Positions 52,716 through 53,428 of a DNA stretch of 64,000 nt are shown one piece after another. Under the pieces are notes generated by a model that saw nothing but the letters and a program-made list of their open reading frames with translations, was not told the DNA's origin and did no database searches. Every line of letters begins with the position of its first letter. Within the stretch, counting starts at the first letter, position 1. A program made the position numbers and the translations under genes. Source of the stretch: Escherichia coli (GTDB lineage: Bacteria; Pseudomonadota; Gammaproteobacteria; Enterobacterales; Enterobacteriaceae); NCBI RefSeq assembly GCF_003790525.1, contig NZ_CP033635.1; one strand, given 5' to 3'.

Positions 52716-53009
52716 TCAGGAGCGCGATTGCGTTCCTGCCAGGGGCGGCTGAGTTGTATACCCCTGTAAAGCTCTGCCCTGATTTCTCACAAACAAGCGG
52801 AGCCTTGTGTTTGCTTCGTGCCTTGCTCTGTTCTCCTTGCGGAATGAAACAGGCTCAGCGTCAAAAGTGATTTCGTATACCTCCGCATATTTCAGGGCGA
52901 CCTTCCGTCTCAGTGACGGTGGCAGCCCCTGTAACTGCTGCTGAATCCACTCTTCGTCTGCCTGGCAGTACCTAGATGGCATCTCTGTCTGAACGTAATT
53001 CTGGGACAT
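52716..53009 (-). CDS. hypothetical protein at the cII position
   Basis: 97-aa ORF immediately downstream of cro on the same strand; no sequence similarity to lambda CII recognised. Confidence 0.5.
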   Translation of the reverse strand: MSQNYVQTEMPSRYCQADEEWIQQQLQGLPPSLRRKVALKYAEVYEITFDAEPVSFRKENRARHEANTRLRLFVRNQGRALQGYTTQPPLAGTQSRS

Positions 53010-53021
53010 ACAAGCCCTTCA

Positions 53022-53294
53022 TCATTCGTTTTTCATAACTGCCGCATTTGTGGCTGTGTGACTTCTACGTAACAAATCAGGGATTGCATCTTCAGGATGG
53101 GGATAAAGATCTGGTCTTAACCCATGAGGAGTAACTTTCCATTCCACAACTTCACATACACGCAAGACGAAACGAGCAGGAATTGTTCTTTTTGAAAACC
53201 ATTGGTTCACAGCTTGCGGCGTAACGCCTAGATTTCGCGCTATGGCATTTTGTGCAATTAGCTCACGAAGTGCGTCGTAATCATTTCCTTTCAT
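53022..53294 (-). CDS. Cro-like HTH repressor (YdaS/Cro family)
   Basis: 90-aa with HTH NAIARNLGVTPQAVNQWFSK, divergent from cI. Confidence 0.75.
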   Translation of the reverse strand: MKGNDYDALRELIAQNAIARNLGVTPQAVNQWFSKRTIPARFVLRVCEVVEWKVTPHGLRPDLYPHPEDAIPDLLRRSHTATNAAVMKNE

Positions 53295-53428
53295 CGCAAC
53301 CCACCAATCTAAACTTTATAAATTCAAGATTACATCAAGTTTAAATTAACATGCAAGTCCACAAAAGATCGAATACACTAAAATCAAGTAAAAATTTATC
53401 GAAACCAAGTAACCAGCAAGGATTAACA
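53295..53428. promoter_or_regulatory. OR-like divergent promoter/operator region between cro and cI
   Basis: AT-rich; contains ATCAAGT-type repeats including the 13-mer AAATCAAGTAAAA (53381-53393) that recurs downstream of cI. Confidence 0.5.

What the first reader, a model, noticed from the sequence alone, without database searches (positions are those of the whole stretch)
52716..53428. Immunity switch: Cro-like gene, unrelated 97-aa protein at the cII position, and shared ATCAAGT operator motifs
cI (plus strand) and cro (minus strand) diverge from a 134-bp AT-rich region with repeated ATCAAGT-type motifs, and the identical 13-mer AAATCAAGTAAAA reappears downstream of cI. This defines a putative operator half-site and an immunity specificity. 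The gene after cro is exactly lambda CII length (97 aa) but shows no resemblance to it.
Basis: partly seen in the sequence, partly recalled or inferred. Interest (0 to 1): 0.4.

Follow-up and report, generated by a model that had tools for sequence, protein, structure and literature searches.

The report
Prophage repressor switch plus helicase-linked gene
This is an ordinary lambda-type repressor/Cro switch of an E. coli prophage whose real operator is a 17-base palindrome, and the 97-residue gene after cro is not a CII relative but an uncharacterised small protein that always travels with the phage's helicase-primase replication genes.

Summary
cI (53429-54118, +) and a Cro/YdaS-family gene (53022-53294, -) diverge from a 134-bp, 69% A+T spacer. 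The 13-mer AAATCAAGTAAAA is exact at 53381 and 54146. A 97-aa ORF (52716-53009, -) follows cro.

The window is an E. coli lambdoid prophage, 99% identical here to phage phi467. Footprinting over 80 related loci (CI 80-100% identical) shows the operator is the 17-bp palindrome ATCAAGTTnAACTTGAT. ATCAAGT is its half-site.
- Three sites lie in OR: 53303, 53334, 53383.
- Two or three lie in OL: 54170, 54218, and a weak one at 54240.
- They flank or overlap the inferred PR, PRM and PL promoters.

The ACCAAGT, TGCAAGT and TTCAAGA motifs are not operator half-sites.

The 97-aa protein (PHROG 852, always annotated "hypothetical") has no CII, YdaT or HTH signal. Its model is a confident basic three-helix bundle with no informative fold match.
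- It pairs with unrelated cro types.
- It always sits beside an SF2 DEAD helicase, from E. coli and Klebsiella to the O104:H4 Stx2a phage P13374 (its match in TL-2011c is unannotated), Vibrio and Serratia phages.
- Its divergence tracks that of the helicase and primase.

I read it as a replication-module accessory; that role is inferred, not shown. The switch is ordinary. The small protein is a modest lead.

The parts
53429..54118 (+). cI repressor, 229 aa. It has an N-terminal HTH and a C-terminal S24 autopeptidase. By inspection: candidate cleavage site C98-G99, nucleophile S143 (GDSM), base K180 (VKRL).
   Evidence: Pfam Peptidase_S24 8e-17 and HTH_3 7e-9. PHROG 4 'transcriptional repressor' 2.6e-51. 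100% identical to the phi467 protein and 88% to CI of three Stx2 phages; 41% or less in every other record listed of the sampled ranking. Best PDB sequence hit is the 434 repressor N-terminal domain, 7.7e-4. Residues read from the translation.
53022..53294 (-). cro-like gene, 90 aa, of the all-alpha Cro/YdaS family
   Evidence: Pfam YdaS_toxin scores 48.9 bits against a cut-off of 30. P22_Cro scores 23 bits, below its cut-off. PDB 3bd1, a chain the depositors name 'Cro protein', matches at 8e-4 over residues 8-65.
52716..53009 (-). X: a 97-aa basic (pI 9.6) three-helix protein of PHROG 852, co-transcribed with cro
   Evidence: PHROG 852 at 8.9e-42, function unknown. 479 homologues; every name a source gives in the 120 listed is 'hypothetical' or uncharacterised. 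270 cluster representatives. AlphaFold2 pLDDT 89, helices 16-27, 31-51 and 55-81. No Pfam, PDB or PADLOC hit. No terminator-like site anywhere in 52400-54400.
53303..53319 (.). ORa operator, ACCAATCTAAACTTTAT (12/16 to consensus). It lies at about +1 to +17 of the inferred PR.
   Evidence: The orthologous site is ATCAAGTTAAAATTGAC in L098 and ATAAAGTATAACTTGAT in L093.
53334..53350 (.). ORb operator, ATCAAGTTTAAATTAAC (13/16). It fills the PR spacer and is centred about -44 from the inferred PRM start.
   Evidence: Conserved in all 35 distinct OR variants. Among the top window-wide scores.
53383..53399 (.). ORc operator, ATCAAGTAAAAATTTAT (13/16), over the inferred PRM start
Evidence: The left half is conserved in all alleles.
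53351..53356 (.). ATGCAA / TTGCAT: inferred shared -35 hexamer of back-to-back PRM (+) and PR (-)
   Evidence: Unchanged in 34 of the 35 distinct OR variants; L020 has ATACAA. The promoter assignment is an inference from spacing to conserved -10-like hexamers.
53327..53332 (-). Inferred PR -10, TAATCT (TATTCT in the 88% allele)
   Evidence: Sequence read. It was not called by the consensus scan, so it remains an inference.
53374..53379 (+). Inferred PRM -10, TACACT (TAAAAT in L093), 17 bp from ATGCAA
   Evidence: inference.
54146..54158 (+). Second copy of the 13-mer AAATCAAGTAAAA: one good half-site with a poor partner. At most an auxiliary site.
   Evidence: Exact repeat. Not conserved: CCCAAGT in L025, CTCAAGT in L027, and replaced by a terminator hairpin in the 88% allele.
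54170..54186 (.). OLa operator, ATCAATTTTTTCTTGAC, overlapping the PL -35
   Evidence: It is ATCAAGTTTAACTTGAC in L091-L099.
54182..54211 (+). PL-like promoter, TTGACA-18-TAACAT, reading into the 142-aa HTH gene
   Evidence: Best sigma-70 consensus match in 52400-54400, 10 of 12. TTGAC is kept in all alleles.
54218..54234 (.). OLb operator, ATCAATTTTAACTTGAT (15/16), the best site in the whole 64-kb window, at about +1 of PL
   Evidence: It is a perfect palindrome, ATCAAGTTTAACTTGAT, in L091-L097 and L099.
54240..54256 (.). OLc, a weak third site: GTTAATTTTAAATTGAT (12/16)
   Evidence: Kept in the E. coli alleles and absent in L091-L099.
54266..54694 (+). First PL gene: a 142-aa protein with a C-terminal HTH_3 domain
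   Evidence: Pfam HTH_3 3.6e-11. PHROG 4836 'CII-like regulator' 1.9e-58.
52476..52715 (-). 240-bp non-coding gap after X. It holds a hairpin, a G-run tract, a GCGAAGC mini-hairpin, the conserved box GGTACATAGGTTAGGTAGATC (52530-52550) and flanking TAGACGTC repeats. It is a candidate origin or control region of the replication module.
   Evidence: Alignment A5, repeat listing, and the box is single-copy in the window. A gap of 200-350 bp follows X in every lambdoid-type locus.
49236..52475 (-). NUMOD4/HNH homing-endonuclease gene (51855-52475), SF2 DEAD helicase (50206-51864) and Zn-ribbon/Toprim primase (49236-50204)
   Evidence: Pfam and the PADLOC homing-endonuclease model. The helicase is 67% and the primase 57.5% identical to P13374 ORF36 and ORF37.

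Best explanation
The region is the immunity and early-right control region of a lambdoid E. coli prophage of the phi467 immunity type.

The switch. An SOS-cleavable CI dimer and a Cro/YdaS-family Cro compete for 17-bp palindromic operators with consensus ATCAAGTTnAACTTGAT. In OR I infer two back-to-back promoters that share the -35 element ATGCAA/TTGCAT.
- CI at ORa and ORb would cover the PR start and spacer and shut off the cro-X-replication transcript.
- CI at ORb is centred about -44 from PRM, which is the right place to activate cI transcription.
- ORc sits on the PRM start and would give negative autoregulation, or shut-off by Cro.
- Downstream of cI, OLa and OLb bracket a strong PL-like promoter.

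The 97-aa gene (X). X is translated from the PR transcript just after cro. It is not a CII homologue. It belongs to the replication module, which is laid out as X, a roughly 250-bp structured gap, an SF2 helicase and a Toprim primase. Most probably X helps that helicase-primase pair to start or control phage DNA replication, for example by origin recognition, helicase recruitment or regulation.

Shown versus inferred. Shown: the gene identities, the operator consensus and its positions, and X's linkage to the helicase. Inferred: the promoter assignments, the roles given to each operator, and any biochemical role for X.
For: The switch:
- Domain content of CI and Cro.
- A dyad scan puts the top four of about 64,000 17-mers in OR/OL.
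- Six of the nine sites scoring 12/16 or better fall in 281 bp, and 0 of 2000 local shuffles match the top pair of sites in either region.
- The consensus comes independently from other loci: OL carries perfect palindromes in L091-L097 and L099. The three OR sites, ATGCAA and the -10-like hexamers are kept across CI alleles of 80-100% identity, while the DNA between them drifts.
- TTGACA-18-TAACAT is the best promoter match in the region.

X:
- It starts 12 nt after the cro stop with its own ribosome-binding site, and the terminator scan finds nothing in 52400-54400.
- The family is conserved at 41-99% identity from Vibrio to E. coli.
- It follows lambda-type Cro, YdaS-type Cro or an unassigned Cro, but is always followed by the gap, the DEAD helicase and the Toprim primase.
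- The 88% CI allele (PhiR49_2) has Roi and O/DnaC genes and no X.
- In Serratia phage Eta and Vibrio phage 1.223.O, X lies two genes after an SF2 helicase of the same Pfam domain make-up; Eta's is 27% identical to the window's, E 2e-23. In Shewanella 1/41 and Vibrio vB_VaS_L1 it follows a gene annotated as helicase. A metagenomic member sits next to a VRR-NUC nuclease and another next to RusA.
- Identities of X, helicase and primase fall together: 99/95/99, 73/72/76, 54/67/58 and 41/57/49.
Against: - No experiment supports the promoter positions. PR and PRM match the sigma-70 consensus poorly, 3 of 6 in the shared -35, and the scan did not call them.
- Operator spacings of 31 and 49 bp differ from lambda's 23-24 bp, so lambda-style cooperativity cannot be assumed.
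- For X, everything rests on gene neighbourhood. Lambda cII is also outside the imm region and next to the replication genes, so linkage in lambdoid phages alone does not exclude a CII-like role.
- No fold or sequence match suggests a biochemical activity.
- One locus (L009) has a 99% identical helicase but only a 77% identical X. This comes from a recombination joint inside X.
Confidence: 0.6

Rival explanations
1. X is a non-homologous functional analogue of lambda CII, as YdaT is in CP-933P (that YdaT role is from memory). On this view it is a short-lived early activator that turns on leftward cI and int promoters to establish lysogeny.
For: It occupies the position directly after cro on the PR transcript. 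It is small and basic, with an Arg/Asn-rich conserved helix that could bind nucleic acid. No other CII candidate was recognised between cro and the replication genes. Eru1-type phages are reported to lack CII homologues (PMC8044961).
Against: There is no HTH and no similarity to the CII or YdaT families. Homologues sit inside replication/recombination operons of phages where no cI/cro pair lies within the 9-10 kb examined, such as Eta, Shewanella 1/41 and Vibrio 1.223.O. The conserved box in the gap is single-copy in the window, so no second target is seen near int or cI. No conserved leftward promoter was found in the gap: the TTTACA/TTTAGA spacing to TATGTA varies by 2 bp between close relatives.
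Confidence: 0.12
2. X regulates early-right transcription. On this view it is an antiterminator or RNA-binding factor acting on the structured gap transcript, so that RNA polymerase reaches the helicase and primase genes in a phage without N.
For: A conserved hairpin, ACCGGGC-TTAAAGGT-GTCCGGT, starts about 14 nt after the X stop. A second hairpin carries a compensatory change, GCGCGAAGCGC against GTGCGAAGCAC. X has an arginine-rich helix. PMC8044961 reports that Eru1 phages lack N homologues; no N search was run on this window.
Against: No terminator-like site was found in the gap and there is no Rfam match. The first hairpin is absent in P13374, and the Klebsiella version has a non-compensated mismatch. 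In Eta-type phages X has no such gap downstream.
Confidence: 0.12
3. One reading: repeated 7-mer or 13-mer ATCAAGT units, including ACCAAGT, TGCAAGT, TTCAAGA and the 54146 copy, are the units that the repressor recognises.
For: The 13-mer is an exact repeat well beyond chance. All the strong sites begin with ATCAA.
Against: Relatives show full dyads, and the partner half AACTTGAT is perfect in distant alleles. ACCAAGT and the 54146 copy are not conserved. An HTH+S24 repressor acting as a dimer on a dyad is what the lambda, 434 and P22 repressors do (established knowledge).
Confidence: 0.05
4. X is an accessory 'moron'-type gene, such as an anti-host or anti-defence factor, that merely hitch-hikes next to the replication genes.
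For: It is small, has unknown function and no enzymatic motif, and several database records leave it unannotated.
Against: Linkage to one helicase family persists across genera and two gene orders, and the sequences diverge together. It is translationally close-coupled within the core operon. No PADLOC match.
Confidence: 0.08

Closest known systems
Lambda, 434 and P22-type CI/Cro genetic switch (lambdoid immunity region)
   Same: There are divergent cI (HTH + S24 autopeptidase) and cro genes. Several 17-bp pseudo-palindromic operators overlap divergent promoters. A second operator set lies at a PL-like promoter downstream of cI.
   Different: The operator sequence, ATCAAGTTnAACTTGAT, was not found in the searchable literature. 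Site spacings are 31 and 49 bp in OR and 48 bp in OL, against 23-24 bp in lambda. The cI mRNA has a ribosome-binding site and leader. Cro is of the all-alpha YdaS/P22-Cro type and 90 aa long. CI is 41% or less identical to Fels-1, ST104 or HK022 CI.
Escherichia phage phi467 (LN997803) and the E. coli TUM1886 prophage at yecE
   Same: 98.8-99.5% nucleotide identity over 52500-54300. The CI is identical and the gene order is the same.
   Different: phi467 carries a 122-aa phrog_1347 gene where the window has a NUMOD4/HNH endonuclease gene. The repeats that flank the conserved gap box also differ. The records annotate these genes only as a generic regulator or hypothetical proteins.
Eru1 replication unit of non-lambdoid Stx phages (TL-2011c, P13374; Llarena et al. 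2021, PMC8044961)
   Same: An SF2 DEAD helicase followed by a Toprim primase directly downstream of cI-cro, with no O/P genes. An X homologue (P13374 ORF34, 54% identity) and the conserved gap box sit in front of them.
   Different: The helicase is only 67% and the primase 57.5% identical. The gene after the primase is a 285-aa phrog_6204 protein, not Eru1C/DUF1367. The paper names three eru1 genes and none of my term searches in it found a mention of the small upstream ORF, which is unannotated in the TL-2011c record.
Lambda CII (PF05269) and YdaT (PF06254), the genes that normally follow cro or ydaS
   Same: The same slot after cro, a similar size, and a basic protein.
   Different: No sequence or profile similarity. 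The predicted fold is a plain three-helix bundle rather than an HTH tetramer. The gene-neighbourhood pattern points to replication.

Membership tests
Lambdoid CI (LexA-like S24) repressor | N-terminal HTH DNA-binding domain | tested here: met
   Pfam HTH_3 7.1e-9 over residues 13-57. 434 repressor N-terminal domain at 7.7e-4.
Lambdoid CI (LexA-like S24) repressor | C-terminal S24 autopeptidase with a Ser/Lys dyad and an Ala/Cys-Gly cleavage site | tested here: met
   Peptidase_S24 8.3e-17. GDS143M and VK180RL motifs are present. C98-G99 is the candidate cleavage site, by inspection of the translation. Cleavage itself was not tested.
Lambdoid CI (LexA-like S24) repressor | Several dyad operators overlapping divergent promoters, repeated at a second (OL) locus | tested here: met
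Lambdoid CI (LexA-like S24) repressor | Protein binds these operators and confers immunity | not testable with these tools
   Needs EMSA or footprinting, and superinfection tests.
Cro (all-alpha P22-Cro/YdaS clan) | Sequence membership | tested here: met
   PF15943 YdaS_toxin scores 48.9 bits against a cut-off of 30. PF14549 P22_Cro scores 23 bits, below its cut-off of 30.2. PDB 3bd1, a chain named 'Cro protein', matches at 8e-4.
Lambda CII (PF05269) | Sequence or profile homology | tested here: not met
   No Pfam hit for X or for any of 136 family members.
Lambda CII (PF05269) | Helix-turn-helix DNA-binding fold | tested here: not met
Lambda CII (PF05269) | Activates leftward promoters for cI and int through repeats flanking a poor -35 | tested here: inconclusive
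   No conserved leftward promoter in the gap and no second copy of the conserved box. Expression was not tested.
YdaT (PF06254), CII analogue that follows YdaS | Sequence membership | tested here: not met
   No Pfam hit.
PHROG 852 (unknown function) | Profile match over the full length | tested here: met
   8.9e-42, residues 2-96 against profile positions 3-97 of 98.
Eru1-type replication unit | SF2 DEAD/DEAH helicase plus Toprim primase in place of O/P, next to cI-cro | tested here: met
   Pfam. 67% and 57.5% identity to P13374 ORF36 and ORF37.
Eru1-type replication unit | Third gene is Eru1C (DUF1367) | tested here: not met
   The gene after the primase (48379-49236) has no Pfam hit and belongs to phrog_6204.
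P4 Cnr (DUF5375), small regulator encoded upstream of a primase-helicase gene | Sequence or profile homology | tested here: not met
   hhalign probability 0.2%.

The most novel reading that the evidence does not exclude
X (PHROG 852) may be an overlooked fourth component of the helicase-primase ('Eru1-like') replication module, the module also carried by the O104:H4 and O103:H25 outbreak Stx2a phages. On this reading it is a three-helix protein, with no informative structural match among solved structures, that recognises the G-rich, box-containing gap as an origin or recruits or regulates the SF2 helicase. That would make it essential for replication of these phages.
Probability: 0.3. Interest if true: 0.55.

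Novelty: new member of a known kind. Interest (0 to 1): 0.3.

Why it matters
The switch adds one more immunity specificity to the lambdoid catalogue. Its operator, ATCAAGTTnAACTTGAT, is shared by phi467, PhiR49_2 and three Stx2 phages among the records listed. That is useful for predicting superinfection immunity, but it is not surprising.

The small protein is the more useful lead. It is a widespread, conserved and often unannotated gene. It sits directly in front of the helicase-primase genes of the Stx phages that were reported to be unusually unstable lysogens (PMC8044961). If it proves necessary for replication or for the lysis-lysogeny choice, it would fill a gap in how these 'non-lambdoid' Stx phages start replication without O/P, or decide their fate without CII.

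Tried and rejected
- Homology of X to lambda CII and to P4 Cnr/ORF106: none.
- Pfam on 136 family members, NCBIfam and PADLOC: nothing.
- Profile searches of the PDB: nothing below E = 0.1.
- The first AlphaFold2 run, with 30 close homologues, was poor (pLDDT 63). The run with 136 diverse members was good.
- BFVD returned only uncharacterised family members. The afdb50 library was unavailable.
- Rfam found nothing in the region.
- I considered reading CGCTCCTGA plus the hairpin after X as a boxA/boxB nut site. I dropped it because Klebsiella lacks the boxA-like part, which in E. coli lies inside the coding sequence.
- A sigma-54 reading of TGGAACAGGCTTTTCC was dropped because the spacing differs by 2 bp in Klebsiella.
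- A literature search for the operator sequence found no paper.
- The plasmid hits for X are excised phage genomes with the same layout, so they are not independent evidence for a replicon.
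Full report
**Where the window comes from**

Window 52500-54300 is 99.5% identical to a prophage next to yecE in E. coli TUM1886. It is 98.8% identical to Escherichia phage phi467.

On the transcribed minus strand the order is cro, a 97-aa ORF (X), a 240-bp gap, a NUMOD4/HNH gene, a DEAD-box SF2 helicase, a Zn-ribbon/Toprim primase and a 285-aa protein; by the TUM1886 annotation a Q antiterminator follows. On the plus strand, cI is followed by a 142-aa HTH gene and the early-left genes; by the TUM1886 annotation these run to xis and int.

**Check of the observation**

- cI is 53429-54118 (+) and cro is 53022-53294 (-).
- The spacer is 134 bp and 69% A+T, against 49% for the window.
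- The 13-mer AAATCAAGTAAAA is exact at 53381 and 54146, with a one-mismatch inverted copy at 54224. That is 3 matches against 0.08 expected.
- The bare 7-mer is not over-represented in the window, but 4 of its 7 copies lie in the two control regions.
- The ORF after cro is 97 aa and has no similarity to lambda CII.

**The proteins of the switch**

CI has an HTH_3 domain and a Peptidase_S24 domain. By inspection it has a GDS143M nucleophile motif, a VK180RL lysine motif and a Cys98-Gly99 candidate cleavage site. It should therefore be inducible through RecA, like LexA-type phage repressors.

Cro passes the Pfam YdaS_toxin threshold. It also resembles a solved chain named 'Cro protein' (3bd1, 8e-4).

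CI is identical to the phi467 protein and 88% identical to the CI of PhiR49_2 and of three Stx2-converting phages. Every other record listed in a sampled ranking is at 41% or below.

**The operator**

I collected 80 loci from IMG/VR whose CI is 80-100% identical to the query. I then compared the DNA upstream and downstream of cI.

In the most distant alleles (L091-L099), the region downstream of cI carries two copies of a perfect or near-perfect 17-bp palindrome.
- One, ATCAAGTTTAACTTGAC, overlaps a TTGACG -35 element.
- The other, ATCAAGTTTAACTTGAT, lies just after the -10.

I scanned the whole 64-kb window with this dyad. The four best 17-mers all fall in the two control regions. With the 16-position consensus, six of the nine sites scoring 12 or more lie there. 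None of 2000 shuffles of either region reaches the observed top pair.

The sites are:

| Site | Coordinates | Note |
|---|---|---|
| ORa | 53303-53319 | |
| ORb | 53334-53350 | |
| ORc | 53383-53399 | |
| OLa | 54170-54186 | |
| OLb | 54218-54234 | 15 of 16 matches |
| OLc | 54240-54256 | weak |

All three OR sites and OLa/OLb are retained in every allele, while the DNA between them drifts.

Other ATCAAGT-like motifs fare differently.
- ACCAAGT at 53404 is not conserved.
- The second 13-mer copy at 54146 is mutated in two loci with an identical CI. In the 88% allele it is replaced by a terminator hairpin for cI.
- TGCAAGT is conserved, but as part of ATGCAA.

**Inferred promoter layout**

This layout is inferred, not measured.
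- ATGCAA/TTGCAT (53351-53356) is unchanged in 34 of the 35 OR variants.
- It lies 17 bp from a conserved TACACT (TAAAAT in L093) on the cI side.
- It lies 16-18 bp from TAATCT/TATTCT on the cro side.

I read these as back-to-back PRM and PR promoters sharing one -35 region. ORb then fills the PR spacer and is centred about -44 from the PRM start. That is the geometry used by lambda CI at OR2 (established knowledge). ORa covers the start of the PR transcript. ORc covers the PRM start, like an OR3.

The consensus scan did not call these weak promoters. It did call TTGACA-18-TAACAT at 54182-54211 as the best match in the region, and OLa and OLb bracket that promoter.

**The 97-aa protein, X**

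X starts 12 nt after the cro stop, behind AAGGG, and the terminator scan finds no site in 52400-54400. It is therefore an early PR gene.

X matches PHROG 852 (unknown function, 8.9e-42).
- It has 479 close homologues; every name a source gives in the 120 listed is 'hypothetical' or uncharacterised.
- A profile search of 1.84 billion cluster representatives finds 270 members. Most are 66-120 aa.
- The core motif is D..WI.EQL..LP...R......Y..VY......EP....K.N.AR..ANTRLR.FV.

No member hits an informative Pfam family. NCBIfam and PADLOC (X alone) and profile searches of the PDB also give nothing.

X is therefore not a CII, YdaT or Cnr relative.

**What X travels with**

In E. coli, the X gene occurs at 95-98% DNA identity behind unrelated cro genes. 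The 88% allele of this very immunity region has Roi and O/DnaC genes and no X.

Wherever X occurs in lambdoid phages, three things follow it: a 200-350-bp gap, the DEAD helicase and the Toprim primase. This holds in the following cases:
- E. coli prophages;
- Klebsiella prophages;
- 37-42-kb excised Klebsiella phage genomes filed as plasmids;
- the O104:H4 Stx2a phage P13374 (ORF34);
- Vibrio phage 1.233.B.

TL-2011c carries a 53%-identical match at the same record position as in P13374, but no ORF is annotated there and I did not fetch its neighbours.

In Serratia phage Eta and Vibrio phage 1.223.O, X lies two genes downstream of an SF2 helicase of the same Pfam domain make-up, overlapping a roughly 138-aa gene; Eta's helicase is 27% identical to the window's, E 2e-23. 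In Shewanella phage 1/41 and Vibrio phage vB_VaS_L1 it sits the same way after a gene annotated as helicase. One metagenomic member overlaps a VRR-NUC nuclease gene, and another is followed by RusA.

Identity of X, helicase and primase to the window copies falls in step:

| Locus | X | Helicase | Primase |
|---|---|---|---|
| phi467 | 99% | 95% | 99% |
| Klebsiella | 73% | 72% | 76% |
| P13374 | 54% | 67% | 58% |
| Vibrio phage | 41% | 57% | 49% |

The one exception is L009, with 77% for X against 99% for the helicase. A recombination joint in the middle of X explains it: the C-terminal half is identical and the N-terminal half is diverged.

This pattern is what one expects of a component of the replication module, not of the immunity module.

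The paper that named the helicase, primase and a third gene eru1A-C states that Eru1 phages lack N, CII and CIII homologues. None of my term searches in it found a mention of this ORF, and the ORF is not annotated in the TL-2011c record.

**The gap after X**

On the transcribed strand the gap contains:
- a hairpin, ACCGGGC-TTAAAGGT-GTCCGGT;
- a tract of G runs;
- a GCGCGAAGCGC mini-hairpin, which is GTGCGAAGCAC in phi467 (a compensatory pair);
- the 21-bp box GGTACATAGGTTAGGTAGATC, which is single-copy in the window and shared by E. coli, Klebsiella and P13374;
- two flanking TAGACGTC repeats that differ between the window and phi467.

The Vibrio phage has two perfect 17-bp iterons at the equivalent place, in front of a RepL-like winged-helix gene. 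This looks like an origin or control region, but nothing here proves it.

**Verdict**

The immunity switch is real and ordinary. It is a new, so far undescribed operator specificity of a well-known kind, and it is already present in deposited phage genomes.

The 97-aa protein is correctly called unrelated to CII. Its most likely role is in the helicase-primase replication module (about 0.45). The CII-like (0.12), transcription-control (0.12) and accessory (0.08) readings are not excluded.

Noticed in passing
window 52476-52715 (- strand): A structured 240-bp non-coding gap lies between X and the next gene. It contains a conserved hairpin, a G-run tract, a GCGAAGC mini-hairpin with a compensatory change in phi467, and a 21-bp box, GGTACATAGGTTAGGTAGATC, shared with Klebsiella prophages and Stx phage P13374. 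Lineage-specific repeats flank the box. It is a candidate origin of the helicase-primase module.
   Followed up: partly
window 51855-52475 (-): A NUMOD4/HNH homing-endonuclease gene overlaps the helicase start. It sits where phi467 and P13374 carry a 122-125-aa phrog_1347 gene, and where Klebsiella prophages carry nothing.
   Followed up: partly
window 54266-54694 (+): The first gene after the PL-like promoter, in the slot lambda N occupies, is a 142-aa protein with a C-terminal HTH_3 domain. It matches PHROG 4836, labelled 'CII-like regulator', at 1.9e-58. phi467 annotates it as DicA.
   Followed up: no
L009 6001-6288 compared with window 52716-53009: There is a mosaic joint inside X. From about residue 52 the protein is identical to the window copy except one F/Y change. 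Before that it is only about 50% identical. This goes with a different cro upstream and a 99% identical helicase downstream.
   Followed up: partly
NC_019442 (TL-2011c) 18674-18922; also phi191, Ss-VASD and ArgO145: The X homologue is not annotated as a gene in several reference Stx-phage records.
   Followed up: no
window 44723-44873 (-): Two adjacent tRNA genes lie in the late region of the prophage.
   Followed up: no
L014 5480-5530 (Vibrio phage 1.233.B): Two perfect copies of ACGACAGAACCTGTCGC lie upstream of a RepL/HTH_36-like 'replication protein' gene. The position is equivalent to the enterobacterial gap.
   Followed up: no
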